Below, one piece after another: positions 2,408 to 22,367 of a DNA stretch of 23,582 nt. The stretch's first letter is position 1. Each line of letters begins with the position of its first letter. Below the pieces are notes generated by a model, which did not search any database, was not told the DNA's origin, and saw nothing but the letters and a program-made list of their open reading frames with translations. A program made the translations under genes and the position numbers. Source of the DNA: a virus (Duplodnaviria; Heunggongvirae; Uroviricota; Caudoviricetes); IMG/VR virus record IMGVR_UViG_2925908680_000008. One strand, written 5' to 3'.

Positions 2408-2412
2408 CTCCG

Positions 2413-3227: not shown

Positions 3228-3239
3228 GCTTTGCTCCAT

Positions 3240-3611
3240 CGTTACAACTGTCTACCAACTGTCCACCGATATAATTTATTGATTTATTTGATATTATTTA
3301 CACATAACTAAAAAATAACCTATCAATTGTCTACCAACTGTCTACCGCATTAATACATTGATAATTAATGATTTTTTCAAAATGGTAGACAGAGTAGACA
3401 GTTAAAAGAGAAATTTTAAAAATGAACCCTTAACTATCTGTTTTTTTATATACCCCCCGTGGTTTAGGAATATAGAAACAACTGTCCACTCTCTACCACA
3501 TTTAAAAATATCTATACAATTCAATGCATTAATTGGTAGATGGTTGGTAGAGGATTAAGTATTACTGTCTACCAACCGTCTACCTTTACGTTTCAGCTCA
3601 TAAATTTCGTA
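3240..3611. repeat. iteron-type replication origin with AT-rich unwinding region
   Basis: At least 10 copies of CAACTGTCTACC-like motif in both orientations (e.g. 3245-3267, 3323-3346, 3384-3403, 3479-3497, 3533-3553, 3563-3584) interspersed with AT-rich tracts, directly 3' of the replication gene. Confidence 0.7.
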
Positions 3612-5417: not shown

Positions 5418-5704
5418 TTCTTACCTCCCGCAACCAACATTGCTCGGATTTTTTTAATATTCGTGGCTGCACGTCTCGCCACCGCCTGTTGTTTGTTTTC
5501 CATCAGAATAAAATCACGATCAAACTGACGGCGCGGCATTACGCAGTCATATTCGTAAGCCTCACGGCGGTAGGTGATATTGCCTGGCGTAACGTGACGA
5601 ATAACCACTCGTCCCCCGCGTCTGGTGTCGCGGTAAATATCGCCGTGTCTGATTTCAGGCCGAGCGGGGCCGCTGGCAGTAAAGCCAGAATTTTTCTGTT
5701 TCAT
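5414..5704 (-). CDS. hypothetical basic protein (96 aa), coupled to replication gene
   Basis: ATG at 5704 with AGGAAAA RBS; stop overlaps start of downstream gene. Confidence 0.5.
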   Translation of the reverse strand: MKQKNSGFTASGPARPEIRHGDIYRDTRRGGRVVIRHVTPGNITYRREAYEYDCVMPRRQFDRDFILMENKQQAVARRAATNIKKIRAMLVAGGKK

Positions 5705-5708
5705 GGTT

Positions 5709-5909
5709 TTATTTTCCTGTCAGCAGTTCCGGTTTTATTTCCGCACGAATACAGAGTTCAGAAAAAAATTCAGGAGAACCAACAATCTCATTACTTTTCA
5801 GTCGGCATTGTGATTTCACTTTTCCTTTATCCAGGTAAACCAGTATGCGTCCGGTGAAATCATCTGGCGCACTCAGGGTAATTGTCATTGTTGCTTGCTG
5901 ATTATCCAT
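5709..5909 (-). CDS. hypothetical protein (66 aa)
   Basis: ATG overlaps upstream stop (ATGGATAA); tight operon arrangement. Confidence 0.45.
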   Translation of the reverse strand: MDNQQATMTITLSAPDDFTGRILVYLDKGKVKSQCRLKSNEIVGSPEFFSELCIRAEIKPELLTGK

Positions 5910-6267
5910 AATTCACCCCCTGAATAACCTGATAACCGCAACTGGTCAGCAATTCGATAAATTCCGGCAGTGTTCCGAAACAGCAATCATCTCGCAGCCG
6001 TTCTCGGGATACTTCAACGCCGTTTTCGTAGTGACTCACCATGCGTCCGGTAAAATGCAAATCATCATCGTGATGGCACGTTGACGGTTTAATCAGTCGC
6101 GCACGCTCTGCCAGTTCCAGCAATGCTTCAACACTTCCGGCAATTGCACCATCCGGCAGGTGGTAATTACGCACTATGCGCCCGTTCTCCACATGGACCA
6201 GTAGCTGCCCGGTAAATATCTCGTCAAACTGAATGCTGTTAAGGTCAGAAATTGACAGGTTATGCAT
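5902..6267 (-). CDS. hypothetical protein (121 aa)
   Basis: ATG at 6267 overlaps upstream stop (ATGCATAA). Confidence 0.5.
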   Translation of the reverse strand: MHNLSISDLNSIQFDEIFTGQLLVHVENGRIVRNYHLPDGAIAGSVEALLELAERARLIKPSTCHHDDDLHFTGRMVSHYENGVEVSRERLRDDCCFGTLPEFIELLTSCGYQVIQGVNYG

Positions 6268-6625
6268 GGTGCACCTCCTGGCGAATACGGGCAGCGAATA
6301 CCATCACGCAGCCATCAGGAGATTGCTGGCGTGCTTCCTGTTCGCTGGTGGCCTCGATGTGAATTACACGCGGTTGTGCCGTACTCAGGGCGATAAAACG
6401 CCAGATAAAATTGTTCTCGCATTTCTGAATAAACAGCGTGTTTTCTTCGCGCCCTTTCCATGTTGCCGAGATATAGCCCATGTCATTGAGCATCTCGCAG
6501 GCATCAACCAGCGTATCGGCGGCTACGTGTACAGTGTTTTTACCGTCAGCTATGCAATCACGGTGCACCGCCAGGAAGGTGTATATAAATTTAGGGTGAG
6601 TTTGGGTATGCTGTGTTCCAGCCAT
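6260..6625 (-). CDS. hypothetical protein (121 aa), first gene of replication operon
   Basis: ATG at 6625 (MAGTQHT...) with GAGGT RBS; E. coli-like codon usage, unlike the antisense read-through upstream. Confidence 0.5.
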   Translation of the reverse strand: MAGTQHTQTHPKFIYTFLAVHRDCIADGKNTVHVAADTLVDACEMLNDMGYISATWKGREENTLFIQKCENNFIWRFIALSTAQPRVIHIEATSEQEARQQSPDGCVMVFAARIRQEVHHA

Positions 6626-6812
6626 AATCGTTACCTCGTTTAACGGTTTGGTTAGACGCCCCGCTACTGCCGCAAACAGTTCGGGGCGTTGTCGTTTACA
6701 TCCTCTTACTGAGGTGTGATTTAAATTAAATTCAACTGAATCACAGGTCAAGTATTTTTTGTGATTCTTTTTTGTGTATACTGAATCACATCTTTTGTTT
6801 AGGAGAATGCAC
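6626..6812. promoter_or_regulatory. divergent promoter/operator region between replication operon and small regulator gene
   Basis: CTGAATCACA direct repeats at 6737-6746 and 6781-6790 with inverted TGTGATTC between; TATACT -10-like hexamer at 6777-6782; AGGAGA RBS at 6801-6806; 8-bp stem hairpin around 6650-6690. Confidence 0.5.
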
Positions 6813-7118
6813 ATGGCAAAAAACACTATCAACGACAAATCAAAACAGATTTCAATTCGTATCCCACATGATGCTTTTGATGGCATGGAATCCGTAAAAC
6901 TGGACGGCGAAAGCAACGCCGGATTCATAGTAACCGCCATGCGCGGTGAGATCGCCCGCCGCCAGGCAGAAGGAAGAGGAGAAAACCCCCTGGTTTCTTC
7001 GCTCGATGCACTGGCGCAGGTGGAAAAAATCGGTGTCAAAGCTGCCGAGGAGATCGGGCAACTCGTCACCGTCGCGCGTGAAGAACTCCAGCGACGCAAG
7101 GTCAAAGAGCAGGAATAG
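6813..7118 (+). CDS. putative ribbon-helix-helix DNA-binding regulator (candidate island repressor)
   Basis: 101 aa from ATG 6813 with AGGAGA RBS; ISIRIPHDAFDGMESVKL...NAGFIVTAMRGEIARR has a strand-helix-helix pattern; family assignment is by eye only. Confidence 0.45.
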   Translation: MAKNTINDKSKQISIRIPHDAFDGMESVKLDGESNAGFIVTAMRGEIARRQAEGRGENPLVSSLDALAQVEKIGVKAAEEIGQLVTVAREELQRRKVKEQE

Positions 7119-7175
7119 CCACTATCAGCGCCATAGTTTGAGGAACGCAGGCGCATTGCTTTACAGGACAGCACC

Positions 7176-7355
7176 ATGAGCGACACAGAATCAACCAAAA
7201 CACCATCACCAACTCGTAAGAGACGACGCAAAAATATAGCGCATGAACATGAATCAGAAAGATTCGCACCTTGTTCGTTTGCTCTTGAGAAATTCCTTAA
7301 AGAGCACAGGAAAAAGCTCTCGTTGCAAACCTTGGAACGAACCAAATCTGACTGA
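7176..7355 (+). CDS. small basic hypothetical protein (59 aa)
   Basis: ATG 7176, stop TGA 7353-7355; below ORF-track cutoff; RKRRRK basic patch. Confidence 0.3.
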   Translation: MSDTESTKTPSPTRKRRRKNIAHEHESERFAPCSFALEKFLKEHRKKLSLQTLERTKSD

Positions 7356-7756
7356 TCACATTGCCCACCAGCCGCAAATGTGGCATTGTTGGTGATGCGT
7401 TCAAGTTTGATTTGCCGTAATACCCACTGGCGACCCTCTGCGGTCGCCTTTGTTTTATCCAGAACGAAATCAGACATCAGATTGATCAGCACCTGGCGAC
7501 CTGACAAAATCGTATCGGTCGCGCCACCAGCAAAATTTTTTGCTTTCCGGACGATGTGGCCAACGGTATTTTGCAGCAAAATATTCTGCATTTCTGGCGT
7601 GCTGTGGCGACGGTGATCAGCGCCTTCACATTGAACGAACTTGTCGCTAAAATTCACCCACATAGCAAACATCGCGGTGCTGTAGGTAATTCGTTCACAA
7701 AGGCGCTCCGGCAACGGGGCGCTTTCTCTTTTTGTAACGGTCAGAGCGTTACACAT
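7355..7756 (-). CDS. hypothetical protein coupled to ant; 3' end undefined (no in-frame stop)
   Basis: ATG 7756 overlaps ant stop (ATGTGTAA) with GGAGGAAAA RBS; good codon usage for ~134 codons, then frame continues stop-free to 6260. Confidence 0.4.
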
Positions 7757-8549
7757 GGCTGTTTTCCTCCATGCGACGGGCTAACCAACGCTGCGAAAGA
7801 CGAATTAATTCAGCTTTCCGCTGGTGGTAGTCCTGGCCTAACTCAATCAGCGTGATATTGCTCCGCTCAAGGTAAGAAAGGTGCTCAAGCTGCAACGTGC
7901 TCATGTGGTCGCGTGGTTCACCTGTGATGCCGTTCGCCTGCGCCCACTGTTTTGCAGTCATGCCACCCAGCACGATACGCGCCAGCATATTGGCTTCCGT
8001 GGTGTAGTGGTGCTGTAGAGTGTTTTTACCCAGTTCAGTCCGGTACGCCTCCAGCGCGGCGCACATCGGCTTAAAGTAGCTGGCAACGGTGATACGGGCT
8101 TTCAGTTCCCTGCGTAACGCTGCGGAACGCACTGGCGCTACCTTGTGTAGCTCCTCCTCGCATTTGATGAAGTACTGACGAACGGCACGGCCCTGTTCGG
8201 TGCGTTCGACCATCGCCAGTTCTTTTGCCATGTTCACGGTGATGATGTACTCAAGAGCGGTTTGCTGGCGAGATTTTGCGCTCACCGGATCGGGTCGGCT
8301 CAAATATTCAACAACTTCATAATCCACGCCTTCCGTGAAGCCGTATTCTTCAATGCGCCCCTTGATCCACGAACGGAAAACGCGCCCTACACCTAACGCC
8401 TTATGCAACGCTCTGGCGCTAACAATATTGGTTTCACGCCCGCCAATAACGCCGGAAATAACCGGGATAATTTCGCCAAAATTTTGCAGATTCTGGTTTT
8501 CAGGCCGAACGAAGCCCTGCCCCTGTACGGGCGTTTTTCGCAGTTTCAT
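7749..8549 (-). CDS. phage antirepressor-like protein (AntA/Rha-like domain)
   Basis: 266 aa; TNIVSARALHKALGVGRVFRSWIKGRIEEYGFTEGVDYEV resembles the AntA/Rha antirepressor domain; AGGAG RBS. Confidence 0.6.
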   Translation of the reverse strand: MKLRKTPVQGQGFVRPENQNLQNFGEIIPVISGVIGGRETNIVSARALHKALGVGRVFRSWIKGRIEEYGFTEGVDYEVVEYLSRPDPVSAKSRQQTALEYIITVNMAKELAMVERTEQGRAVRQYFIKCEEELHKVAPVRSAALRRELKARITVASYFKPMCAALEAYRTELGKNTLQHHYTTEANMLARIVLGGMTAKQWAQANGITGEPRDHMSTLQLEHLSYLERSNITLIELGQDYHQRKAELIRLSQRWLARRMEENSHV

Positions 8550-8627
8550 AAAAACTCCTGCTATCGAATTAAGTTACTTTTATTTGCTGGTGGATAGCTG
8601 GGGGCTTCTGGCCCCGTAGCCATTTAA

Positions 8628-8825
8628 TCAGGTAGCTGTTCCGCGTGATTCAGCAATACGCTGATTAATCCACTCGTCAATTTCACTCTCAACGAAAGCA
8701 ATAGCTCGCGAGCCAATTTTAACTGATGCAGGAAATTTACCTTGCCCCATAAGGCGATAAATCCATGCCTTGCTATATCCAGTTCTACGCTGAACTTCTG
8801 TTAAACGAATAAGCGTATTTGACAT
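8628..8825 (-). CDS. alpA: AlpA-family (Phage_AlpA/Vis-like) transcriptional regulator/excisionase-type HTH protein
   Basis: 65 aa; IRLTEVQRRTGYSKAWIYRLMGQGKFP...ESEIDEWINQR aligns with the AlpA pattern. Confidence 0.85.
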   Translation of the reverse strand: MSNTLIRLTEVQRRTGYSKAWIYRLMGQGKFPASVKIGSRAIAFVESEIDEWINQRIAESRGTAT

Positions 8826-8893
8826 ATATTTACCTCATAACGTCTACTCAATTTGACGAGGTAATCCTGGCACAGAAATAACGAATATTTTCA

Positions 8894-9070
8894 TACCCTC
8901 AGGCCTAATGGTTACCGGAAGGAAATTAACCCTAAGGGTGATGGTAATCGGAAGGAAATTAACCCTAAGGGTGATGGTAATCGGGAGGAAATCTACCCTA
9001 AGGGTGATGGTAAAATTGACGGGGAAGATAAAAAAATACCCTCAGGGTAACAGTAAATCACCCTCAGGGT
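8894..9070. promoter_or_regulatory. operator-like repeat array upstream of alpA: three tandem 33-bp repeats plus two extra palindromic sites
   Basis: 33-bp units at 8908-8940, 8941-8973, 8974-9006; motif ACCCT-N-AGGGT at 8929-8939, 8962-8972, 8995-9005, 9038-9048, 9060-9070. Confidence 0.55.
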
Positions 9071-9085
9071 ATGCGGTATGGTGCG

Positions 9086-9883
9086 TTAATCCGGCTTTGC
9101 GTTCTTTTGGCTGTTGTCTCGGTTAATAGGGCAGGCAGTCCTCTCTATGAGCGTTGCAAGTGCATTACTTGCCCCCCACTGCTTAAGCTCCCTGGTTATC
9201 GCTTCTTGATTTCCCCTGGTGGCAAAATCATTTTCTGGATCGTAATTGGCCCACTCTCTGTTTCTAATCTCAATAGCCTTAGCTAATGGGTCTTTATCCC
9301 AGTATTTATATAAGTGTATCGGGCGCTCTTGCTCTAACTGCTCTATCCTTGCCCTTAACTCTGCGTTTTCTTTTTCCAGCATTGCGATTTGGGATAATAA
9401 ATCATCCTCTGTACGCAACTCTTTCTTTTCAATATCGCGTCCTTGTGCCTCGTCATTTTCAGAAGAGTTAGCGCCTTCCAGCTTCGTTAACGCGTCAAGG
9501 ACATCGGGAAAAATTGCGAAAATTTCACCCCTTATAAATCCAATGTTCTCAAATTCGGGATCTTCCCAATAACCGGACACCAGAAAACCATTTTCATCCC
9601 TCTCACCAGGTAAACAACCACGTTTCCGAACCGCATTCAGATTTCTATAAAGAACATCATAATCAAATTCATCCCGATACGGGTTACAAAAAGATTCCAA
9701 CAGCTTAAATTCATTTACTGTGTACAGGCGGATATGTTCTCCGCTTATTCTCCTGAGTATCCAAGTTATGACATCTGAAACATCATAATCATCACCAGCG
9801 ACCTTAAGCACGACCTCAAGAAATTCACGTAAAGAAATAAAATCTTTTTTGTATTCGTTTAATTCGGCATGAATATCAATCAT
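9086..9883 (-). CDS. uncharacterised cargo protein (265 aa) with central coiled-coil segment
   Basis: ATG 9883 with GAGGTG RBS (ORF track start at 9889 is GTG); appears AT-richer than neighbours by eye; LEKENAELRARIEQLEQER heptad-like stretch; no recognised catalytic motif. Confidence 0.55.
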   Translation of the reverse strand: MIDIHAELNEYKKDFISLREFLEVVLKVAGDDYDVSDVITWILRRISGEHIRLYTVNEFKLLESFCNPYRDEFDYDVLYRNLNAVRKRGCLPGERDENGFLVSGYWEDPEFENIGFIRGEIFAIFPDVLDALTKLEGANSSENDEAQGRDIEKKELRTEDDLLSQIAMLEKENAELRARIEQLEQERPIHLYKYWDKDPLAKAIEIRNREWANYDPENDFATRGNQEAITRELKQWGASNALATLIERTACPINRDNSQKNAKPD

Positions 9884-10011
9884 ACGCACACCTCAGCGTC
9901 CTCTACTGTAGTGGCTGTACCAGTCCGTCGAGGTGTACGGATTTTCGGGAGCGACCCTAGACACAGCCTTTTCTTTCGTCGCTCAAAGTCTACTACTGTA
10001 TACGCAACCAG

Positions 10012-11226
10012 TCATCCACATTTTCCGAACTTGCCATGCACCACGTTACCGCCATGCTCGAGCGAATCCATATAGTCGGCATACCACTGGAGCATCTCCC
10101 GGCGACCATCCAGATATTGCGCATGGTTGTATGTGCCACGAATTGAGTTTTTATCGACGTGTGCGAGCTGCGTCTCTATCCACGCGGTGTTATAGCCCTG
10201 CTCATGCAAAATGGTGCTCATGGTGTGCCGGAATCCATGACCAGTAACGCGCCCGGCATAGCCGATACGACGAATGAGCACATTCATCGCCATTTCACTC
10301 ATTGGCTTACTGTGGTGAATACGACCGGGGAAAATAAACTGATACTGGCCTGTCATGTTTTTTAACTGCTCCAGTATTTTTATTGCCTGTTCTGGTAATG
10401 GCACGCAATGCGGACGGCGCATCTTCATTCGTTCTTTAGGCACTTCCCACAAACGATTATCAAAATCGATCTCCTGCCATTCTGCCTGCCGTAATTCCCC
10501 GGGTCTGACACCTGTCAGAATTAATAGCCGCATTGCCAGTTTGACGATCTGGCTTCCGGTGTACGTATTAAAAACGCGGAAAAATTCCGGCAGTTCGTCG
10601 GCCTTCAAATAGGCGTAATGCTCTTTTTTATGTGGAGCAAATGCGCTCACCAGATCAGGGGCTGGATTATATTCGGCGCGTCCGGTGATGATTGCGTACC
10701 GGAACACCTCGCCGCATCGCTGGCGAACCTTACGCAATTTTTCAGTCGCACCACGGTCATTAAGACGGGAAAGAACCGCCAGCAATTCCATCGGCTTAAT
10801 TTCTGCGATCGGCCTACCGCCAATGTACGGAAAAACATCTTTTTCAAACGTCTCGATCATTTCCTCGGCGTATGACGATGACCACCTGTCGATCCGCTTT
10901 TCGTACCATTCGCGAGCAATACCCTCAAAAGTATTGCCAAATTTGCTCGCCTGTTCTCGCTTTTGGGCTTTTCTGGCCTCACTTGGATTTATACCACCAG
11001 CAAGAAGCCTTTTAGCCTCATCCCTTGCCGCCCTGGCATCAGACAGGGACACATCAGGGTACACACCCAACGACAACATTTTGGGCTTTCCTGCAAACCT
11101 GTAGCGCAGTCGCCACCCTTTCGAACCGTTCGGCTCAATGAGCAACGAAAGCCCGTTACCGTCATTGAGTGTATAAGCCTTTTCTTTCGGCTTCGCGCGC
11201 CTGATGGCAAGGTCTGAAAGCAGCAT
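10012..11226 (-). CDS. int: P4-type tyrosine integrase (site-specific recombinase)
   Basis: 404 aa from ATG 11226 with GGAG RBS; N-terminal LSDLAIRRAKPKEKAYTLNDGNGLSLLI... typical of P4-family integrases; C-terminal HGFRHT and Y-containing catalytic region. Confidence 0.9.
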   Translation of the reverse strand: MLLSDLAIRRAKPKEKAYTLNDGNGLSLLIEPNGSKGWRLRYRFAGKPKMLSLGVYPDVSLSDARAARDEAKRLLAGGINPSEARKAQKREQASKFGNTFEGIAREWYEKRIDRWSSSYAEEMIETFEKDVFPYIGGRPIAEIKPMELLAVLSRLNDRGATEKLRKVRQRCGEVFRYAIITGRAEYNPAPDLVSAFAPHKKEHYAYLKADELPEFFRVFNTYTGSQIVKLAMRLLILTGVRPGELRQAEWQEIDFDNRLWEVPKERMKMRRPHCVPLPEQAIKILEQLKNMTGQYQFIFPGRIHHSKPMSEMAMNVLIRRIGYAGRVTGHGFRHTMSTILHEQGYNTAWIETQLAHVDKNSIRGTYNHAQYLDGRREMLQWYADYMDSLEHGGNVVHGKFGKCG

Positions 11227-11873
11227 GTGTATAGCTCCAAAAAATAAATTTTGTCCTATACGCATTACTATACACTTCTGTGTGTAGATTCTGGTAGTTG
11301 TGAGTAGACGTTAATGAACTATGAAAATGGCTGGAAGACTTGATATTCGTGGGTTTGATGGACTTTAGTAGACGTTGAGAAATGTTTGTTTGGAGCGGGC
11401 GAAGGGAACAATACAACAAGCCACAAGACCAGTAGTAAAGGCACATTCGCGAGTTCTAAAATAGATTCTATACACATTTCTATACACATTTATCACTCGC
11501 TTGGGAATTACACATCCCCTGTTATCCGTGATCAAGCTGGTGGATGATCACGGATAACCGATATGGGAATCCCCATATCGGCATCGCGTAGTTAATCGTA
11601 GTGGCTACCGTAGTAGTTGAGTAGCAGGATGTAACCTGCCAGGAAGGAAATGATCGGTCGTAACTCGCCACCACCAGCCACAGAACGCAAATTTGCGTCG
11701 TCGGATATATCAACAACTTAGCACAAAAATAAGTCAGGCAGATACAAACCTCAAATTTGAGGTTTGCTTGTTTATCAACGGGTAAGGATAATCATCTCCC
11801 CTTTAAAGTCCCTTCGAAGGGTTACCCGTAGGCTTAATGTAAGGCTTGGCTGTAGCCTTACCGAACGCTCCGC
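11227..11873. other. int-upstream / att-proximal region with direct repeats and perfect palindromes (att core not identified)
   Basis: CTATAC(A/G)C repeats at 11266-11290 and 11466-11492; AGTAGACGTT twice; 14-bp-arm inverted repeat 11521-11558; 10-bp-arm palindrome 11558-11581; 22-bp perfect palindrome 11745-11766. Confidence 0.4.
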
Positions 11874-12358: not shown

Positions 12359-12883
12359 TTAATGGGATGATTTTTCCCACTCAGCCAGGGCGTTTAGTCC
12401 GGCTTCACTCCAGTTATCCAGCTCATCGGGACAATCACCTGCAACATAGCAGAGCTCACAACGCAGCATACGAATTGCCAGCCTGGCATTTTCCCGAAAA
12501 TCATACTGCTCAAAGTAATATTGCCCAGCATAATCCTCAAGGCAGATAGCACCATCATCAAGAAATTGCACTTCACAGCATAGTTCCCCGGCTGCATCCT
12601 GCACACGCTGCTGTATGTCATCGTCCGTTACTGGTGCAGGGATTTTACCGTCTCTGGCCTTAACTGCTTTCCAGAACTCGCCCCACGTCATTTCCAGCGT
12701 TCTCTCTGGCCACATTTCAGAAACGGTATCTTTTCCCTGTGCTGGTGGGCTGTTCCGCTGCTCTGTCGCTTCCACATCGATTTTTTTACCGGACATGACC
12801 ACTTCGCCTTTCTCGATCCAGTCGTAAACTGTCTGGCGGCTTACGCCTTTGTGTTTGGCATATTCTGCCTTGCTCATAAACAT
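12359..12883 (-). CDS. TerS-like HTH protein (copy 2)
   Basis: Identical 174-aa translation to 1-525. Confidence 0.45.
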   Translation of the reverse strand: MFMSKAEYAKHKGVSRQTVYDWIEKGEVVMSGKKIDVEATEQRNSPPAQGKDTVSEMWPERTLEMTWGEFWKAVKARDGKIPAPVTDDDIQQRVQDAAGELCCEVQFLDDGAICLEDYAGQYYFEQYDFRENARLAIRMLRCELCYVAGDCPDELDNWSEAGLNALAEWEKSSH

Positions 12884-13053
12884 GACACTTCCCCTCAGAC
12901 TGTATTAATGCGCCGGAAAGCGCGTGTATTTAAATCATCCCAGGAACCGTTGAGCACCAATTAGTTGCGCGAAGTAATCGGCACCAGCGTTCCGAACAAT
13001 TTCCAACTTAACGTTCTGATCATTGTTTCCTGCTGCAGGGACAATCCCACGAT

Positions 13054-13706
13054 TCATAGCCAGCGCCCGGATATTTCTTCCAGTTTTTCCAGAGCTGGCT
13101 TGCAGGCCGCATCAATAACTTCACGGACCATTCCGGCGAGCTGTTCTTCTTCTGTCGGCGTTGTTACTTCCACACCTGATGGTTTCCCGCCCTTATCCCA
13201 TACGCCCAACGGTACGAGCGCAACGTGATCGATAAGAAATGGCGTACCCTCAATGAAAAATTGTCCTCGCCCATTACATCAGGAACTTCTGCCCCACCGG
13301 ACGCACCACAAAACACAACCGACGGGCTGGTGGATACCTCCCCCCGTGCTTTCTGGATGTAATCGATGATTTCCTGCCCGTAAATCCGGCATACGCCCCA
13401 CACCTCGTCACCGCGAATATACGGCAACATGACGGTGCCAATAATGCGCGACCGTTCGCCCACGTCTTCAAGGGTTTTGCTTTCGGGATGGTCGATAATG
13501 ACGGGTACTCCGGCGCAACGTTCCAGGAACTGCGGATTGAGATAAGTTTGCGGTGAACGCCAGACAAATTCTTTTTCTTCGGCGCGATAGGCCATTCCGG
13601 TTCCTGTGATACGCAGGTTAATCAGCCACATGTTGGAAAACTGATAAGGCGACGGTAGCTGACCGTCCCGAATCTGCTTTGCCGCCTCAATTTCTGTTAA
13701 AAGCAT
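13054..13706 (-). pseudogene. frameshifted copy of the 217-aa hypothetical gene (A5 instead of A6 at 13256-13260)
   Basis: ORF track gives 180 aa (13164-13706) with divergent C-terminus after MGEDNF; copy 1 has A6 at 898-903. Confidence 0.5.
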
Positions 13707-13770
13707 AATGTCCCCCGGTTATAAGCAATAAGCCCCACCAAATCCGGCAGGGCTGAAATCAGCACGTTTT

Positions 13771-14355
13771 TCATGCCCCCGCGAGGCTTGCAACGTTAAT
13801 TTTAACCAGGCGACGGGGAGGGATTTTGAAAGCACTAAGCCAGTTATTCGGATCCCCCTGATATTCAGTAATCCGCCGTCCGGCTTCATCCATTCTTACG
13901 GTTTTACGCAAATAGCCCGGCGTATTTTCCACAGCCCACTGAACACTGTCTTTTGCAGCCTGGTAAATCTGATCTTCCAGCACCGCCAGCGTTGCAGAAT
14001 CTGAAACGGAACGAATATCCACATCACTGAATTTTTTAGCCAGCTTCTGTGCACCAATTAATGCACGCTTGCGGTAATCCATCGACTTTTCACCAGCAAA
14101 CGGGGCTGGAGCGCGACGGCCCATATTGCTGTATGCGGAATCCGCTTTAGCCTGGGCTTCTGCCAGTGAGGATTCATCTTCGACTGACGCGACGATGTTT
14201 TTATTCGCGTCATCCTCGTCCGCTTTTGTGAAATCCTGTGCGGGGATCGCATTCAGAATTTCGATAATCTCCTGCGGAGTGCTGCCCTGCGACTCTGACA
14301 GAGCGTTAACCACCTCCATCAGTTTTAATCGCAAATCTTCTTTGCTTGCTGGCAT
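13771..14355 (-). CDS. hypothetical acidic protein (194 aa), copy 2
   Basis: Identical to 1414-1998; upstream A-run difference is outside the CDS. Confidence 0.5.
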   Translation of the reverse strand: MPASKEDLRLKLMEVVNALSESQGSTPQEIIEILNAIPAQDFTKADEDDANKNIVASVEDESSLAEAQAKADSAYSNMGRRAPAPFAGEKSMDYRKRALIGAQKLAKKFSDVDIRSVSDSATLAVLEDQIYQAAKDSVQWAVENTPGYLRKTVRMDEAGRRITEYQGDPNNWLSAFKIPPRRLVKINVASLAGA

Positions 14356-14393
14356 TTTTACCACCTCTCTTTTTTCACCAAAAATCACGACCA

Positions 14394-14573
14394 TCAGGCC
14401 GGACGTTCTACGGGATAAAGCGCCCGCTGCATTAAACGCCGGGCGACCTCATGAATGCTCGGAGCAATCCCCAGCGGAGAATTGCGGCGTTCCTCGTCCT
14501 GGATGCGCTGTAATGCTTCAATCTGATCACGAGCGAGTAAAACGGGTTTCACGCTGGCTTTTCTCATAGTCAT
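14394..14573 (-). CDS. small hypothetical protein (59 aa), copy 2
   Basis: Duplicate of 2038-2217. Confidence 0.4.
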   Translation of the reverse strand: MTMRKASVKPVLLARDQIEALQRIQDEERRNSPLGIAPSIHEVARRLMQRALYPVERPA

Positions 14574-14735
14574 ATCTCCTGAACAAAACAATGATTATGA
14601 TTGCACAAACTGAAATAACGATCTACATCATTGCAATTTATGAAACAATAACGCATGATGATCGCGTTCTTCCCATTGACTTCAATCACCTGAAAAACAA
14701 AGCCCGCAACACTTCTGGCTGCGGGTTTTTTACTG

Positions 14736-14763
14736 GCACAAAAAAGCCGGGAAAAATCCCGGC
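14736..14763 (-). terminator. intrinsic terminator after PerC-family gene, copy 2
   Basis: Duplicate of 2380-2407. Confidence 0.6.
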
Positions 14764-14768
14764 CTCCG

Positions 14769-15056
14769 TCACTGACTGCAATTTTTCGATCCAGGGTATT
14801 TCCTGAATGCCTTACCATTGGGCTGATGTAATCCCATCCCGGCATGTGCCCGGCTGATGGTTTCGCGCATTTCCCCGAAATTATCCTGCCTTGCTGGTGG
14901 GCGTGCTGCCTTGCGGATACATTCCGCGCGACGTTTTGCCGCCTGTTCCCGTGCCTTGTCATCATTCGCCAGCATGATGACCTCAGCCCACCGCGCCGCC
15001 GCTCTCCGGTACAGACCACGCGCTTCCAGTGCTTCCGCTTTGCTGTCGTGAATCAT
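14769..15056 (-). CDS. PerC-family transcriptional regulator, copy 2
   Basis: Duplicate of 2413-2700. Confidence 0.65.
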   Translation of the reverse strand: MIHDSKAEALEARGLYRRAAARWAEVIMLANDDKAREQAAKRRAECIRKAARPPARQDNFGEMRETISRAHAGMGLHQPNGKAFRKYPGSKNCSQ

Positions 15057-15583
15057 GCGCCTGTTTTCTCCTTTGCTGCCCGGCGCTGACGTTTGCGCTT
15101 CTCATTCAGCGCCACCAGCCGCGTTTCTGCGTCCTGTTGTTCCTGTGGTGTCACCTCGCCGCACGGCTGGCCTTTCAGGTCGTAGCGTACCCCACCAGCC
15201 ATTAAGGCGCGGTAATAGCGCGGACACTGCGCATAAGATGCCAGCGTCGCACGCAATGCCCCTGGACCGAATGCCAGCCCCCTGACGGCGAGATCCTGCA
15301 TCAGGTCGTCGAATATCCCCACCTTAAGCGGCTTCGGTGCTTCCCGGCTGAATAATTCAGGCCACAACTCAGTGAGGCGGTTAACGCGCCTGCGGTTTTT
15401 GCGCTGGCGTTTGGTCATATGCCGCCACGGTGTCGCCCCTGTGGGCTTCTGCTGCGCTTTCTGGTTACCGGGCATCACTTTATGCGCCGATGTGGTTTTA
15501 TCCTGCTCCTGCGCCGCCTGCGTCGTTTTCTGCGGCGTGCCGTAAATGCCTTTCGGTTTTCTGTTAATGGTCAGCTTAGTCAT
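15053..15583 (-). CDS. ProQ/FinO-domain RNA-binding protein, copy 2
   Basis: Duplicate of 2697-3227. Confidence 0.8.
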   Translation of the reverse strand: MTKLTINRKPKGIYGTPQKTTQAAQEQDKTTSAHKVMPGNQKAQQKPTGATPWRHMTKRQRKNRRRVNRLTELWPELFSREAPKPLKVGIFDDLMQDLAVRGLAFGPGALRATLASYAQCPRYYRALMAGGVRYDLKGQPCGEVTPQEQQDAETRLVALNEKRKRQRRAAKEKTGA

Positions 15584-15595
15584 GCTTTGCTCCAT

Positions 15596-15967
15596 CGTTA
15601 CAACTGTCTACCAACTGTCCACCGATATAATTTATTGATTTATTTGATATTATTTACACATAACTAAAAAATAACCTATCAATTGTCTACCAACTGTCTA
15701 CCGCATTAATACATTGATAATTAATGATTTTTTCAAAATGGTAGACAGAGTAGACAGTTAAAAGAGAAATTTTAAAAATGAACCCTTAACTATCTGTTTT
15801 TTTATATACCCCCCGTGGTTTAGGAATATAGAAACAACTGTCCACTCTCTACCACATTTAAAAATATCTATACAATTCAATGCATTAATTGGTAGATGGT
15901 TGGTAGAGGATTAAGTATTACTGTCTACCAACCGTCTACCTTTACGTTTCAGCTCATAAATTTCGTA
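15596..15967. repeat. iteron-type replication origin, copy 2
   Basis: Duplicate of 3240-3611. Confidence 0.7.
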
Positions 15968-17773
15968 TTATGTTCTGTCGTTAATCCCTGTTGCTGCTGG
16001 CAACCAGCTATCAGCATCATCATCTAACAGAACATTTGTTATCACTCGCCCTTTATCCTGGCCTTTAGTGCATTTAGCCCGCTTATACTCCTTTCCGTAT
16101 TCCGCCATAGCACCAGGCATATCAGTGCCAAAGCGTTTCAGTGATACTGGTTTTCCCAGACCATGCGCTGACATATAGGCTAAATAAGCATGATACAGAT
16201 ATCGCCTCGGGCTAAATGGCACTATTCCCGCATTGCCCACCATCATTCCTTCACATTTAACCAACGACATCAGATAGCCGCAAAAGTCCACCAGTGAATC
16301 ACCCTCACGTTTTATCATCAGAGCCTCTTCTGATTTCTGCTGCTCATATAACAGACGTCTGGCTTCATCCTGGTCAGAAAAACGAGTAAGCAGGTGGCGA
16401 ATAACTACCGCCAGTTCGCCTTCTATTTTTTCCACCAGCATGGGATCGCGTTCGTTCTCCGGTACGACCTCAGAGAAATTAAATATCACCCTACGACGCG
16501 AGATCCCCCCGCTTCGGTCACTGAATGACATGGCGTTATTGTTTACTGCCAGCACTACCGCCGGAATACGAGTGGAGTATGGGGCTTTATGTTTCGGGTC
16601 GATCGCCACCTTGTCACCACCAGTAATTGCCTTAATTCCTGCACCATCTCCAGCGTAGCGGGCCATATCCGGCATGATAATCAGCGAAAAGCCAACGACT
16701 AACGCGCGTTCCCTTGCGTCTTCCAGCGCCTTCATGCTTGCCGATACTGTATTGACCTTACCCGCCAGCATGGTACAAATCTCCGCCATCACACTTTTAC
16801 CGCTTCCGCCCGGCCCCGTTACCTCAAGGAATAACTGCCAGTCGTACCGGTTCGCCAGTACCATGAATAATGCCGCCAGTACGCGATCTGCTTTACGATC
16901 GTTATTTGCCACCGAACGACGCAGCCACTTCCAGAAATTCGGCGCATGTGTTGCCAGCGTTTCCCCCTCTGCTGGTGGGCTGAACGGTAATTCACTGGCA
17001 TTTAACAACCAGTCATTTTTGTTATGCTCCCGAAAATTTCCTGTCCGGGTATCAAATACCCCGTTACTGAATCCAATAAGATTCCTGTCTGCCCCGCCCA
17101 TAACAGGCAGGCTCAATTTCATTGTGTCTACGGCAAATTTAATGGCGTTTTGCGAATAACTGATTCCAGCATCAATAAAAATCTTCGCCATAGATCGCTG
17201 GAGTTCCTTATCAGATACAGGCTCCCAGACAATTCCGTTGTAATGGTGAACTACATCAGAATCGTCATTTATAGCCAGTGCCCTTCCATAATATTCAAGC
17301 AATACTTCCCCTCTCTGGCTGGCTCCCATCTGATTTAGTGCTGGCCTGGGTAGGTCACTATTTTTTGTGACTAATTTCATCGCTGAAACTTCCCCGCGCT
17401 CTGCCTGTTCGCGGATCCGTTGCAGGTAATCGCGCCAGTTCTCCGGCTCCCGGTCGGTGATGCCTTTGTATAATTTCGCCTCCTGTACGCCAGCCAGTGC
17501 CAGTTTTTCAGCGATAGTATTGATCTGGATTGGCTCTATCTCCCCCGCGAGATAGACACGCGCAAAGCGGCGTTCATCGTCGACAATGCGGATATTCGCC
17601 AGGTCTGCCAGTTGCTTTGGCCCCAGATAAACAGGTGGCACGTTATCGCCGTGTTTTCGTCCTTCGCTTTCAATCCAGTGTTGAGCATGGGAGTAAGCGT
17701 CCGTCCCGGCAAAAATGATTACCTCAGTGAATTTATCCTTCGGCTGATATTTCAAATTCGGTGCGTTTTTCAC
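15968..17773 (-). CDS. replication initiation primase/helicase-like protein, copy 2
   Basis: Duplicate of 3612-5417. Confidence 0.75.
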   Translation of the reverse strand: MKNAPNLKYQPKDKFTEVIIFAGTDAYSHAQHWIESEGRKHGDNVPPVYLGPKQLADLANIRIVDDERRFARVYLAGEIEPIQINTIAEKLALAGVQEAKLYKGITDREPENWRDYLQRIREQAERGEVSAMKLVTKNSDLPRPALNQMGASQRGEVLLEYYGRALAINDDSDVVHHYNGIVWEPVSDKELQRSMAKIFIDAGISYSQNAIKFAVDTMKLSLPVMGGADRNLIGFSNGVFDTRTGNFREHNKNDWLLNASELPFSPPAEGETLATHAPNFWKWLRRSVANNDRKADRVLAALFMVLANRYDWQLFLEVTGPGGSGKSVMAEICTMLAGKVNTVSASMKALEDARERALVVGFSLIIMPDMARYAGDGAGIKAITGGDKVAIDPKHKAPYSTRIPAVVLAVNNNAMSFSDRSGGISRRRVIFNFSEVVPENERDPMLVEKIEGELAVVIRHLLTRFSDQDEARRLLYEQQKSEEALMIKREGDSLVDFCGYLMSLVKCEGMMVGNAGIVPFSPRRYLYHAYLAYMSAHGLGKPVSLKRFGTDMPGAMAEYGKEYKRAKCTKGQDKGRVITNVLLDDDADSWLPAATGINDRT

Positions 17774-18060
17774 TTCTTACCTCCCGCAACCAACATTGCT
17801 CGGATTTTTTTAATATTCGTGGCTGCACGTCTCGCCACCGCCTGTTGTTTGTTTTCCATCAGAATAAAATCACGATCAAACTGACGGCGCGGCATTACGC
17901 AGTCATATTCGTAAGCCTCACGGCGGTAGGTGATATTGCCTGGCGTAACGTGACGAATAACCACTCGTCCCCCGCGTCTGGTGTCGCGGTAAATATCGCC
18001 GTGTCTGATTTCAGGCCGAGCGGGGCCGCTGGCAGTAAAGCCAGAATTTTTCTGTTTCAT
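17770..18060 (-). CDS. hypothetical basic protein (96 aa), copy 2
   Basis: Duplicate of 5414-5704. Confidence 0.5.
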   Translation of the reverse strand: MKQKNSGFTASGPARPEIRHGDIYRDTRRGGRVVIRHVTPGNITYRREAYEYDCVMPRRQFDRDFILMENKQQAVARRAATNIKKIRAMLVAGGKK

Positions 18061-18064
18061 GGTT

Positions 18065-18265
18065 TTATTTTCCTGTCAGCAGTTCCGGTTTTATTTCCGC
18101 ACGAATACAGAGTTCAGAAAAAAATTCAGGAGAACCAACAATCTCATTACTTTTCAGTCGGCATTGTGATTTCACTTTTCCTTTATCCAGGTAAACCAGT
18201 ATGCGTCCGGTGAAATCATCTGGCGCACTCAGGGTAATTGTCATTGTTGCTTGCTGATTATCCAT
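18065..18265 (-). CDS. hypothetical protein (66 aa), copy 2
   Basis: Duplicate of 5709-5909. Confidence 0.45.
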   Translation of the reverse strand: MDNQQATMTITLSAPDDFTGRILVYLDKGKVKSQCRLKSNEIVGSPEFFSELCIRAEIKPELLTGK

Positions 18266-18623
18266 AATTCACCCCCTGAATAACCTGATAACCGCAACTG
18301 GTCAGCAATTCGATAAATTCCGGCAGTGTTCCGAAACAGCAATCATCTCGCAGCCGTTCTCGGGATACTTCAACGCCGTTTTCGTAGTGACTCACCATGC
18401 GTCCGGTAAAATGCAAATCATCATCGTGATGGCACGTTGACGGTTTAATCAGTCGCGCACGCTCTGCCAGTTCCAGCAATGCTTCAACACTTCCGGCAAT
18501 TGCACCATCCGGCAGGTGGTAATTACGCACTATGCGCCCGTTCTCCACATGGACCAGTAGCTGCCCGGTAAATATCTCGTCAAACTGAATGCTGTTAAGG
18601 TCAGAAATTGACAGGTTATGCAT
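18258..18623 (-). CDS. hypothetical protein (121 aa), copy 2
   Basis: Duplicate of 5902-6267. Confidence 0.5.
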   Translation of the reverse strand: MHNLSISDLNSIQFDEIFTGQLLVHVENGRIVRNYHLPDGAIAGSVEALLELAERARLIKPSTCHHDDDLHFTGRMVSHYENGVEVSRERLRDDCCFGTLPEFIELLTSCGYQVIQGVNYG

Positions 18624-18981
18624 GGTGCACCTCCTGGCGAATACGGGCAGCGAATACCATCACGCAGCCATCAGGAGATTGCTGGCGTGCTTCCTGTTCG
18701 CTGGTGGCCTCGATGTGAATTACACGCGGTTGTGCCGTACTCAGGGCGATAAAACGCCAGATAAAATTGTTCTCGCATTTCTGAATAAACAGCGTGTTTT
18801 CTTCGCGCCCTTTCCATGTTGCCGAGATATAGCCCATGTCATTGAGCATCTCGCAGGCATCAACCAGCGTATCGGCGGCTACGTGTACAGTGTTTTTACC
18901 GTCAGCTATGCAATCACGGTGCACCGCCAGGAAGGTGTATATAAATTTAGGGTGAGTTTGGGTATGCTGTGTTCCAGCCAT
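18616..18981 (-). CDS. hypothetical protein (121 aa), copy 2
   Basis: Duplicate of 6260-6625. Confidence 0.5.
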   Translation of the reverse strand: MAGTQHTQTHPKFIYTFLAVHRDCIADGKNTVHVAADTLVDACEMLNDMGYISATWKGREENTLFIQKCENNFIWRFIALSTAQPRVIHIEATSEQEARQQSPDGCVMVFAARIRQEVHHA

Positions 18982-19168
18982 AATCGTTACCTCGTTTAAC
19001 GGTTTGGTTAGACGCCCCGCTACTGCCGCAAACAGTTCGGGGCGTTGTCGTTTACATCCTCTTACTGAGGTGTGATTTAAATTAAATTCAACTGAATCAC
19101 AGGTCAAGTATTTTTTGTGATTCTTTTTTGTGTATACTGAATCACATCTTTTGTTTAGGAGAATGCAC

Positions 19169-19474
19169 ATGGCAAAAAACACTATCAACGACAAATCAAA
19201 ACAGATTTCAATTCGTATCCCACATGATGCTTTTGATGGCATGGAATCCGTAAAACTGGACGGCGAAAGCAACGCCGGATTCATAGTAACCGCCATGCGC
19301 GGTGAGATCGCCCGCCGCCAGGCAGAAGGAAGAGGAGAAAACCCCCTGGTTTCTTCGCTCGATGCACTGGCGCAGGTGGAAAAAATCGGTGTCAAAGCTG
19401 CCGAGGAGATCGGGCAACTCGTCACCGTCGCGCGTGAAGAACTCCAGCGACGCAAGGTCAAAGAGCAGGAATAG
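19169..19474 (+). CDS. putative ribbon-helix-helix regulator, copy 2
   Basis: Duplicate of 6813-7118. Confidence 0.45.
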   Translation: MAKNTINDKSKQISIRIPHDAFDGMESVKLDGESNAGFIVTAMRGEIARRQAEGRGENPLVSSLDALAQVEKIGVKAAEEIGQLVTVAREELQRRKVKEQE

Positions 19475-19531
19475 CCACTATCAGCGCCATAGTTTGAGGA
19501 ACGCAGGCGCATTGCTTTACAGGACAGCACC

Positions 19532-19711
19532 ATGAGCGACACAGAATCAACCAAAACACCATCACCAACTCGTAAGAGACGACGCAAAAATATAGCGCAT
19601 GAACATGAATCAGAAAGATTCGCACCTTGTTCGTTTGCTCTTGAGAAATTCCTTAAAGAGCACAGGAAAAAGCTCTCGTTGCAAACCTTGGAACGAACCA
19701 AATCTGACTGA
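19532..19711 (+). CDS. small basic hypothetical protein, copy 2
   Basis: Duplicate of 7176-7355. Confidence 0.3.
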   Translation: MSDTESTKTPSPTRKRRRKNIAHEHESERFAPCSFALEKFLKEHRKKLSLQTLERTKSD

Positions 19712-20112
19712 TCACATTGCCCACCAGCCGCAAATGTGGCATTGTTGGTGATGCGTTCAAGTTTGATTTGCCGTAATACCCACTGGCGACCCTCTGCGGT
19801 CGCCTTTGTTTTATCCAGAACGAAATCAGACATCAGATTGATCAGCACCTGGCGACCTGACAAAATCGTATCGGTCGCGCCACCAGCAAAATTTTTTGCT
19901 TTCCGGACGATGTGGCCAACGGTATTTTGCAGCAAAATATTCTGCATTTCTGGCGTGCTGTGGCGACGGTGATCAGCGCCTTCACATTGAACGAACTTGT
20001 CGCTAAAATTCACCCACATAGCAAACATCGCGGTGCTGTAGGTAATTCGTTCACAAAGGCGCTCCGGCAACGGGGCGCTTTCTCTTTTTGTAACGGTCAG
20101 AGCGTTACACAT
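19711..20112 (-). CDS. hypothetical protein coupled to ant, 3' end undefined, copy 2
   Basis: Duplicate of 7355-7756. Confidence 0.4.
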
Positions 20113-20905
20113 GGCTGTTTTCCTCCATGCGACGGGCTAACCAACGCTGCGAAAGACGAATTAATTCAGCTTTCCGCTGGTGGTAGTCCTGGCCTAACTC
20201 AATCAGCGTGATATTGCTCCGCTCAAGGTAAGAAAGGTGCTCAAGCTGCAACGTGCTCATGTGGTCGCGTGGTTCACCTGTGATGCCGTTCGCCTGCGCC
20301 CACTGTTTTGCAGTCATGCCACCCAGCACGATACGCGCCAGCATATTGGCTTCCGTGGTGTAGTGGTGCTGTAGAGTGTTTTTACCCAGTTCAGTCCGGT
20401 ACGCCTCCAGCGCGGCGCACATCGGCTTAAAGTAGCTGGCAACGGTGATACGGGCTTTCAGTTCCCTGCGTAACGCTGCGGAACGCACTGGCGCTACCTT
20501 GTGTAGCTCCTCCTCGCATTTGATGAAGTACTGACGAACGGCACGGCCCTGTTCGGTGCGTTCGACCATCGCCAGTTCTTTTGCCATGTTCACGGTGATG
20601 ATGTACTCAAGAGCGGTTTGCTGGCGAGATTTTGCGCTCACCGGATCGGGTCGGCTCAAATATTCAACAACTTCATAATCCACGCCTTCCGTGAAGCCGT
20701 ATTCTTCAATGCGCCCCTTGATCCACGAACGGAAAACGCGCCCTACACCTAACGCCTTATGCAACGCTCTGGCGCTAACAATATTGGTTTCACGCCCGCC
20801 AATAACGCCGGAAATAACCGGGATAATTTCGCCAAAATTTTGCAGATTCTGGTTTTCAGGCCGAACGAAGCCCTGCCCCTGTACGGGCGTTTTTCGCAGT
20901 TTCAT
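20105..20905 (-). CDS. phage antirepressor-like protein, copy 2
   Basis: Duplicate of 7749-8549. Confidence 0.6.
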   Translation of the reverse strand: MKLRKTPVQGQGFVRPENQNLQNFGEIIPVISGVIGGRETNIVSARALHKALGVGRVFRSWIKGRIEEYGFTEGVDYEVVEYLSRPDPVSAKSRQQTALEYIITVNMAKELAMVERTEQGRAVRQYFIKCEEELHKVAPVRSAALRRELKARITVASYFKPMCAALEAYRTELGKNTLQHHYTTEANMLARIVLGGMTAKQWAQANGITGEPRDHMSTLQLEHLSYLERSNITLIELGQDYHQRKAELIRLSQRWLARRMEENSHV

Positions 20906-20983
20906 AAAAACTCCTGCTATCGAATTAAGTTACTTTTATTTGCTGGTGGATAGCTGGGGGCTTCTGGCCCCGTAGCCATTTAA

Positions 20984-21181
20984 TCAGGTAGCTGTTCCGC
21001 GTGATTCAGCAATACGCTGATTAATCCACTCGTCAATTTCACTCTCAACGAAAGCAATAGCTCGCGAGCCAATTTTAACTGATGCAGGAAATTTACCTTG
21101 CCCCATAAGGCGATAAATCCATGCCTTGCTATATCCAGTTCTACGCTGAACTTCTGTTAAACGAATAAGCGTATTTGACAT
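20984..21181 (-). CDS. alpA: AlpA-family regulator, copy 2
   Basis: Duplicate of 8628-8825. Confidence 0.85.
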   Translation of the reverse strand: MSNTLIRLTEVQRRTGYSKAWIYRLMGQGKFPASVKIGSRAIAFVESEIDEWINQRIAESRGTAT

Positions 21182-21249
21182 ATATTTACCTCATAACGTC
21201 TACTCAATTTGACGAGGTAATCCTGGCACAGAAATAACGAATATTTTCA

Positions 21250-21426
21250 TACCCTCAGGCCTAATGGTTACCGGAAGGAAATTAACCCTAAGGGTGATGG
21301 TAATCGGAAGGAAATTAACCCTAAGGGTGATGGTAATCGGGAGGAAATCTACCCTAAGGGTGATGGTAAAATTGACGGGGAAGATAAAAAAATACCCTCA
21401 GGGTAACAGTAAATCACCCTCAGGGT
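21250..21426. promoter_or_regulatory. palindromic 33-bp repeat array upstream of alpA, copy 2
   Basis: Duplicate of 8894-9070. Confidence 0.55.
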
Positions 21427-21441
21427 ATGCGGTATGGTGCG

Positions 21442-22239: not shown

Positions 22240-22367
22240 ACGCACACCTCAGCGTCCTCTACTGTAGTGGCTGTACCAGTCCGTCGAGGTGTACGGATTT
22301 TCGGGAGCGACCCTAGACACAGCCTTTTCTTTCGTCGCTCAAAGTCTACTACTGTATACGCAACCAG

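What the first reader, a model, noticed from the sequence alone, without database searches (positions are those of the whole stretch)
13054..13706. Copy-specific frameshift: A5 versus A6 truncates the 217-aa gene in copy 2
Copy 1 has A6 at 898-903 and an intact 217-aa ORF (696-1349). Copy 2 has A5 at 13256-13260, and the ORF track shows a 180-aa product whose C-terminus diverges after MGEDNF. Either one copy is decaying after duplication or this is a homopolymer sequencing error; the distinction bears on whether the duplication is real.
Basis: seen in the sequence. Interest (0 to 1): 0.4.

Follow-up and report, generated by a model that had tools for sequence, protein, structure and literature searches.

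The report
Homopolymer miscall in duplicated satellite island
The one-base difference that truncates a gene in the second copy of a duplicated 12.4-kb phage-satellite island is really in the sequence, but it is most likely a homopolymer consensus error of the genome assembly and not a decaying gene.

Summary
A6 at 898-903 gives an intact 217-aa ORF (696-1349, minus strand). A5 at 13256-13260 gives a 180-aa ORF (13164-13706) that diverges after MGEDNF.

The window is a head-to-tail dimer of a 12,358-bp phage-inducible chromosomal island (PICI) at tRNA-Gly, from E. coli CP024997.2. The two copies differ at only two positions in 11.2 kb. Both are A6->A5 deletions, both in copy 2, and there are no substitutions.

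Copy 1 and both chromosomal flanks are 100% identical to the single-copy relative cq9. The coding run is in frame (T6 or T7) in all 19 other gene copies examined. The 180-aa protein occurs on one contig among about 15 billion proteins; the intact protein is on 76.

A sister assembly, CP025036.2, has at least 3 tandem units with about 11 further indel events, eight within 2 kb and some outside homopolymers. A natural relative differs by substitutions only.

Best reading: a consensus error in a poorly resolved repeat (about 0.8). If real, it would be a null allele of a prohead-protease-fold gene, because invariant residues and the C-terminal helix are lost. Sequence alone cannot show whether the tandem duplication is physical. 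Interest is low.

The parts
1..11226 (.). Copy 1 of the duplicated segment. It belongs to the GH15-proximal unit of the tandem PICI dimer.
   Evidence: Self-BLAST. It is 100% identical over 11,408 nt to E. coli U90 and to cq9.
12359..23582 (.). Copy 2 of the duplicated segment. It belongs to the tRNA-Gly/actS-proximal unit.
   Evidence: it differs from copy 1 only by two 1-nt deletions. Flanks in L027 show actS and xdh beyond its int gene.
11390..11408 (.). attP-type junction core, TTGGAGCGGGCGAAGGGAA, which is the 3' end of tRNA-Gly. It joins the int end of unit 1 to the distal end of unit 2.
   Evidence: the 19-nt overlap of the two alignments to U90 equals the attL/attR direct repeat.
696..1349 (-). 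Intact 217-aa gene (DUF2213 / Pa193_gp24 family, prohead-protease fold).
898..903 (.). A6 run. On the sense strand it reads T6 within AAT TTT TTC (Asn-Phe-Phe).
   Evidence: The run is T6 or T7, in frame, in 19 other gene copies.
13164..13706 (-). Truncated 180-aa ORF of copy 2. The first 150 residues are identical to the intact protein; 30 out-of-frame residues follow.
   Evidence: The exact protein, WP_250145441.1, is on a single contig, CP024997.2.
13256..13260 (.). A5 run: the 1-nt deletion relative to copy 1.
13054..13255 (-). Out-of-frame remainder of the gene in copy 2. It still encodes, in the original frame, the conserved IEGxPxLxDHxA...GVWD motif and the C-terminal helix.
2023..2028 (.). 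Second A6 run (copy 1). It is intergenic, between the 57-aa gene and the 194-aa gene.
   Evidence: annotation.
14381..14385 (.). Second A5 run (copy 2). The haplotype T5+GGTGGTAA is seen nowhere else.
1414..1998 (-). 194-aa gene just upstream of the 217-aa gene in the same operon (copy 2: 13771-14355). It is related to the C-terminal part of phrog_6216 proteins.
1..525 (-). 174-aa protein with a TerS-like N-terminal HTH (copy 2: 12359-12883). It is a candidate packaging-redirection protein.
   Evidence: No sequence match to solved Rpp structures.
10012..11226 (-). Tyrosine integrase of unit 1 (unit 2: 22368-23582).

Best explanation
The A5 run at 13256-13260 is most likely an under-called homopolymer in the consensus of the assembly CP024997.2, not a biological mutation.

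The region is a head-to-tail dimer of a 12,358-bp phage-inducible chromosomal island at tRNA-Gly. A repeat of this length can only be resolved by long reads, and reads cannot be placed uniquely during polishing. Residual single-base deletions in A/T runs, the typical error of long-read consensus, therefore survive in one copy. The gene caller then reports a 180-aa product.

The true gene is the intact 217-aa prohead-protease-fold gene seen in copy 1 and in every relative.

What is shown:
- the differences are indels only;
- they lie in homopolymers;
- the allele is unique;
- the rest of the locus is identical to clonal relatives;
- the sister assembly has an indel-ridden array.

What is inferred: the sequencing technology, and the mechanism by which the error survived polishing.
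For: 1. The copies differ by two 1-nt deletions in A6 runs and by no substitution in 11.2 kb. The chance that both fall in runs of 6 or more by position alone is about 2e-4.
2. Both chromosomal flanks and copy 1 of CP024997.2 are 100.000% identical to strain cq9 (16,181 nt and 4,009 nt). Copy 2 carries the only changes apart from the att-core G.
3. The coding run is T6 or T7, always in frame, in 19 other gene copies from 14 records. T5 occurs only here.
4. The 180-aa protein is on 1 contig among about 15 billion proteins. The intact 217-aa protein is on 76.
5. The intergenic T5 is not the natural T5 haplotype, which is always linked to GGTGATAA. Here it sits with GGTGGTAA, so it was not imported by gene conversion.
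6. The sister assembly CP025036.2 has an adjacent accession series and is likewise a .2 version. It shows at least 3 tandem units with about 11 indel events and no isolated substitution relative to cq9. Eight events lie within 2 kb, several are outside homopolymers, and the same gene is broken at two other places.
7. A natural control, L038, differs from cq9 by about 85 substitutions in the flanks. Its only indel is the att-core G, and its island is otherwise identical.
8. Residues after the frameshift include invariant E153, D160 and W170 and near-invariant H161, so the family is under purifying selection there.
Against: - No reads, quality values or assembly method could be inspected, so the error is inferred and not seen.
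- Replication slippage in A/T runs is also the commonest natural frameshift mechanism, and a redundant copy is free to decay.
- Over about 20 kb of flanks and copy 1, CP024997.2 shows no error at all, so its consensus is good in general.
- With only two events, their concentration in copy 2 is weakly significant (about 0.13).
- The intergenic site does vary between T5 and T6 among natural islands, so run-length change there happens in nature.
Confidence: 0.82

Rival explanations
1. Real decay. The island is physically present as a tandem dimer in the chromosome. The tRNA-proximal copy has acquired two slippage deletions. One of them inactivates its now redundant protease-fold gene.
For: - The junction is an exact attP, as integrase-mediated tandem integration would give.
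- Slippage in A6 runs is a natural mutation type.
- The intergenic run is polymorphic in nature.
- The loss removes invariant residues, so it would be a clean null allele in a redundant copy.
Against: - There are two indels and no substitution, while about 20 kb of surrounding DNA shows no change relative to cq9.
- The allele is unique in public data.
- The sister assembly shows the same kind of array with eight indels in 2 kb, which is not biologically plausible.
- None of 5,426 complete RefSeq E. coli genomes carries the tandem junction.
Confidence: 0.13
2. Population heterogeneity. The extra copy was built from reads of excised, replicating concatemers of the island. A5 is a genuine minority variant among those molecules.
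For: - Induced E. coli PICIs form circular and concatemeric DNA (PMC6092414).
- The junction is attP.
- Copy number differs between the two sister assemblies.
Against: This needs the same improbable pair of slippage events as real decay, and nothing in the sequence requires it.
Confidence: 0.04
3. Functional run-length switching. The T-run is either a contingency (phase-variation) tract or a programmed ribosomal frameshift site, so both forms are meaningful.
For: On the sense strand, U_UUU_UUC is formally a -1 slippery heptamer, and the -1 frame stops after one codon (read from the sequence).
Against: - No run-length variation out of frame occurs in 19 other copies.
- The run is only 6 nt long.
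- There is no downstream structure (z = -0.03).
- A 1-nt DNA deletion gives the +1 frame, not the -1 product.
Confidence: 0.01

Closest known systems
Homopolymer indel errors in long-read genome assemblies that create false frameshifts and pseudogenes (general knowledge; no paper was read for this here)
   Same: - The changes are single-base deletions in A/T runs.
- There are no substitutions.
- They occur in a repeat that polishing reads cannot resolve.
- The truncated protein is unique to one assembly.
- A sister assembly carries many more indels.
   Different: The sequencing platform and the reads were not available, so the assignment rests on pattern and comparison only.
EcCICFT073-type phage-inducible chromosomal islands (PICIs) of E. 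coli (PMC6092414, PMC6739421)
   Same: - The size is 12.4 kb.
- An integrase sits at one end, next to a tRNA att site with a 19-bp direct repeat.
- It has an AlpA regulator and the int-alpA RNA.
- It has a D5-type primase.
- It has a TerS-like small protein.
- It has no capsid, tail or lysis genes.
- Such islands are known to excise and form concatemers.
   Different: - Here it is assembled as a head-to-tail dimer.
- The 174-aa TerS-like protein has no detectable sequence match to solved Rpp.
- It carries a prohead-protease-fold gene. EcCICFT073 is described as lacking capsid morphogenesis genes.
Tandem polylysogeny of temperate elements such as lambda polylysogens and CTX-phi arrays (from memory)
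   Same: Head-to-tail copies are separated by an attP-type junction at the normal attachment site.
   Different: The array is not verified as physical here. Clonal relatives cq9 and U90 carry one copy.
Prohead maturation proteases of the assemblin fold: T4 gp21 (PDB 5jbl) and herpesvirus assemblins
   Same: - An invariant His and a Thr-Ser-Pro motif are present, together with an acidic residue.
- A C-terminal helix is present.
   Different: - The gene is encoded by a satellite that has no capsid gene.
- Distant relatives are fused to a NUDIX domain.
- Catalytic activity and the mapping of catalytic residues were not tested.

Membership tests
Long-read homopolymer consensus error | The difference is a single-base insertion or deletion, not a substitution | tested here: met
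   two 1-nt deletions and 0 substitutions in 11.2 kb.
Long-read homopolymer consensus error | The difference lies in a homopolymer run | tested here: met
   Both lie in A6 runs. Runs of 6 or more are 1.5% of the unit.
Long-read homopolymer consensus error | The allele is absent from clonal and family relatives | tested here: met
   T5 occurs only in CP024997.2 copy 2 among 20 gene copies. The 180-aa protein is on 1 contig, against 76 for the intact one.
Long-read homopolymer consensus error | Other indel-only discrepancies occur in assemblies of the same project | tested here: met
   CP025036.2 has about 11 indel events and no isolated substitution over about 25 kb of array. That the two belong to one project is inferred from the accession series.
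Long-read homopolymer consensus error | Reads do not support the called run length | not testable with these tools
   No reads or quality values are available.
Phage-inducible chromosomal island (PICI) | A 10-15 kb island with an integrase at one end and att direct repeats at a conserved site | tested here: met
   The unit is 12,358 bp. The 19-bp core is the 3' end of tRNA-Gly. It is single-copy in U90 and cq9.
Phage-inducible chromosomal island (PICI) | AlpA-type regulator, own primase/replication module, no capsid, tail or lysis genes | tested here: met
   Annotation and Pfam hits. The int-alpA RNA is found.
Phage-inducible chromosomal island (PICI) | Induction and packaging by a helper phage | not testable with these tools
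   This needs an experiment.
Prohead (capsid maturation) serine protease, assemblin fold | Assemblin / T4 gp21 fold | tested here: met
   [not shown]
Prohead (capsid maturation) serine protease, assemblin fold | Conserved catalytic His and Ser plus a third residue | tested here: inconclusive
   H73, S127 and E153 are invariant. Their spacing resembles my recollection of T4 gp21, but no residue-level superposition was done.
Prohead (capsid maturation) serine protease, assemblin fold | Encoded next to portal and major capsid genes | tested here: not met
   No capsid or portal gene is in the island.
Programmed -1 ribosomal frameshift | A slippery heptamer plus a downstream stimulatory structure, giving the observed product | tested here: not met
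   The heptamer U_UUU_UUC is present. Folding downstream gives z = -0.03. The DNA deletion gives the +1 frame.
Phase-variable homopolymer tract | Out-of-frame run-length variants recur among strains | tested here: not met
   All 19 other copies are in frame, T6 or T7.

The most novel reading that the evidence does not exclude
The dimer is a real chromosomal tandem array of a phage satellite. The tRNA-proximal copy has truly lost its prohead-protease-fold gene by slippage. This would be the first step of divergence between freshly duplicated satellites, altering the dosage of a gene that presumably interferes with helper capsid maturation.
Probability: 0.1. Interest if true: 0.3.

Novelty: not a real feature. 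Interest (0 to 1): 0.08.

Why it matters
The result matters mainly as quality control. The 180-aa protein WP_250145441.1 is most likely a database artefact. The tandem array in CP024997.2, and the larger one in CP025036.2, should not be used as evidence for satellite duplication or pseudogenisation without read support.

If the frameshift were real, it would only show a redundant copy starting to decay.

The more interesting biology lies beside the finding. This widespread E. coli satellite family carries a gene with the prohead-protease fold. Its distant relatives are fused to NUDIX domains, and its role in hijacking helper phages is uncharacterised.

Tried and rejected
1. Viral-contig scan for the attP junction: no match. 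The window is not from a virome contig. It is chromosomal, from CP024997.2 at about 3644615-3668196.
2. Phage and plasmid collections: no phage match and only partial plasmid matches.
3. Fetching NZ_CP024997 and NZ_CP025036 from the RefSeq complete-genome set: neither is present. The reason is unknown, so I draw no conclusion from it.
4. Literature on CP024997 and CP025036: the only finding is that CP024997.2 is an Stx2e-carrying strain. No sequencing method was found.
5. Gene conversion from a paralogous island as the source of the intergenic T5: rejected, because natural T5 is always linked to a nearby G->A change that copy 2 lacks.
6. Programmed frameshifting or phase variation: rejected.
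7. Sequence match of the 217-aa and 174-aa proteins to solved structures: nothing significant. The fold search succeeded instead.
8. PADLOC defence models on the accessory proteins: nothing.

Full report
**Observation.** The window holds A6 at 898-903 inside a minus-strand ORF, 696-1349, that encodes 217 aa. It holds A5 at 13256-13260, with an ORF 13164-13706 of 180 aa. The two products are identical up to ...MGEDNF and then diverge (FIEGTPF... versus SLRVRHF...). On the sense strand the run reads AAT TTT TTC. Losing one T shifts the frame at codon 151.

**Extent of the repeat.** Self-comparison shows that 1-11226 equals 12359-23582, a period of 12,358 bp. A base-by-base walk finds exactly two differences and no substitution. 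One is the reported site. The other is a second A6 (2023-2028) against A5 (14381-14385). It is intergenic, 25 nt upstream of the annotated start of the neighbouring 194-aa gene. Both deletions are in copy 2. Runs of six or more bases cover 1.5% of the unit, so two randomly placed changes would both hit such runs with p of about 2e-4. The changes are run-length events.

**What the repeated unit is.**
- The unit matches a single-copy island in E. coli U90 and cq9 (both from pigs) at 100% identity.
- There it lies between a glycoside-hydrolase-15 gene and tRNA-Gly/actS.
- It has a tyrosine integrase next to the tRNA, an AlpA regulator, an AntA-like protein, an Icd-like protein, a D5-type primase, ProQ/FinO and PerC proteins, and a distal operon of 57-aa, 194-aa, 217-aa (DUF2213), 174-aa and 59-aa genes.
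- Rfam finds the int-alpA RNA at 9900-9967.
- This is the architecture of EcCICFT073-type phage-inducible chromosomal islands (PMC6092414, PMC6739421).
- In the window, the int end of one unit is joined to the distal end of the next through the 19-bp core TTGGAGCGGGCGAAGGGAA (11390-11408). This is the 3' end of tRNA-Gly, so the junction is an exact attP.

**Source of the window.**
- The truncated 180-aa protein exists once among about 15 billion proteins, as WP_250145441.1 on CP024997.2. The intact protein is on 76 contigs.
- Fetching that record places the window at about 3644615-3668196 of a 5.17-Mb chromosome.
- With flanks (L027 and L028) the array is exactly two units: GH15 - unit 1 (intact gene) - attP - unit 2 (frameshifted gene) - tRNA-Gly/actS.
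- The strain carries Stx2e.

**Error or mutation?**
- Outside the two deletions and one G in the att core, CP024997.2 is 100.000% identical to cq9 over unit 1 plus the GH15 flank (16,181 nt) and over the actS flank (4,009 nt). So the isolates are effectively clonal here, yet unit 2 would have suffered two frameshift-type events.
- The coding run is T6 or T7, always in frame, in 19 other gene copies from 14 records. T5 is seen only here.
- The intergenic run does vary in nature, but natural T5 is always linked to a G->A change 24 nt downstream (GGTGATAA). Copy 2 has T5 with GGTGGTAA, a combination found nowhere else. So it was not imported from a paralogous island.
- CP025036.2 has a neighbouring accession and is also a revised .2 record. 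It carries at least three tandem units of the same island.
  - Against cq9 they show about 11 indel events and no isolated substitution; the one mismatched base lies inside an indel cluster.
  - Eight events lie within 2 kb of one unit's int region, including deletions outside homopolymers and a 2-nt insertion.
  - The 217-aa gene is broken at two other positions.
  - That density cannot be biological. It shows that these arrays have poor consensus quality.
- As a natural control, L038 carries the identical island in a different chromosomal background. Its flanks differ from cq9 by about 85 substitutions, and its only indel is the att-core G. Real divergence here is substitutional.
- Together these make a consensus error the best explanation (about 0.8). 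It remains an inference, because no reads could be inspected.

**Is the duplication real?** Sequence alone does not tell.
- The junction is biologically made (attP). A true tandem integration gives that junction, and so do reads from excised, replicating islands, which are known to form circles and concatemers (PMC6092414).
- None of 5,426 complete RefSeq E. coli genomes carries this tandem junction.
- The clonal relatives have one copy.
- The two sister assemblies disagree in copy number.
- I regard it as open, roughly even odds.
- A real sequence difference would prove that two physical copies exist. An error is uninformative on that point.

**What the gene is, and what truncation would do.**
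- Pfam gives a weak DUF2213 (Pa193_gp24) hit.
- PHROGs gives phrog_6216 and a weak head-maturation-protease hit.
- In Pseudomonas phage Pa193 the family's namesake is a putative scaffolding protein (PMC11456595).
- The family alignment has invariant H73, T126-S127-P128, E153, D160 and W170 and near-invariant H161.
- The frameshift at residue 151 removes E153 onward, two core strands and the C-terminal helix 186-216. If real, it would be a null allele.
- Distant homologues are fused to NUDIX domains.
- I infer that the protein acts on helper-phage capsid assembly or maturation. This is not tested.

**Rejected readings.** Programmed -1 frameshifting is rejected. U_UUU_UUC is formally slippery, but there is no downstream structure (z = -0.03) and the DNA deletion gives the +1 frame. 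Phase variation is rejected because the run never varies out of frame elsewhere.

**Verdict.** The interpretation "homopolymer sequencing error" is favoured over "decay". The feature is most likely not biological. Interest is low.

Noticed in passing
[not shown]
   Followed up: partly
window 2023-2028 / 14381-14385: There is a second copy-specific A6/A5 difference, intergenic upstream of the 194-aa gene. Among related islands this run is naturally T5 or T6. In 9 of the 10 distinct haplotype occurrences seen, T5 is linked to GGTGATAA and T6 to GGTGGTAA; L020 has T6 with GGTGATAA. Copy 2 has a combination seen nowhere else.
   Followed up: yes
L030 and L037 (CP025036.2, about 4912752-4937689): The sister assembly holds at least 3 tandem units of the same island, with about 11 indel events relative to cq9. 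Eight lie in 2 kb of one int region. The array there looks like low-quality consensus.
   Followed up: partly
window 11390-11408; L001 18001-18019 and 30358-30376: The att core differs by one G. attL of U90 and cq9 has GCGGCG. attR, the middle attP junction and the attL of L038 have GCGGGCG. This places the crossover to the right of the G-run, or it is itself a run-length artefact.
   Followed up: partly
L038 (ABCGIK010000001.1) 7142-19508: The island is 100% identical to that of cq9, while the chromosomal flanks differ by about 85 substitutions. This points to recent horizontal transfer of the satellite between E. coli lineages.
   Followed up: no
window 8908-9013 (and 21264-21369): A 33-bp unit is repeated 3.2 times at 93% match, between the alpA gene and the 265-aa gene next to int. 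It may be a set of regulator or replication-protein binding sites.
   Followed up: no
window 9900-9967 (-): The Rfam int-alpA RNA (RF02996, 45.5 bits) lies between the int gene and the 265-aa gene.
   Followed up: no
window 6260-7756 (-): A 498-aa ORF with no family hit overlaps the region annotated elsewhere as an Icd-like protein (222 aa) and a YlcI/YnfO gene on the opposite strand. Gene calls differ between identical copies and between assemblies.
   Followed up: no
window 1-525 (-) / 12359-12883 (-): The 174-aa protein has an N-terminal HTH similar to terminase small subunits (phrog_57) but no sequence match to solved Rpp structures. It may be a further type of packaging-redirection protein.
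   Followed up: partly
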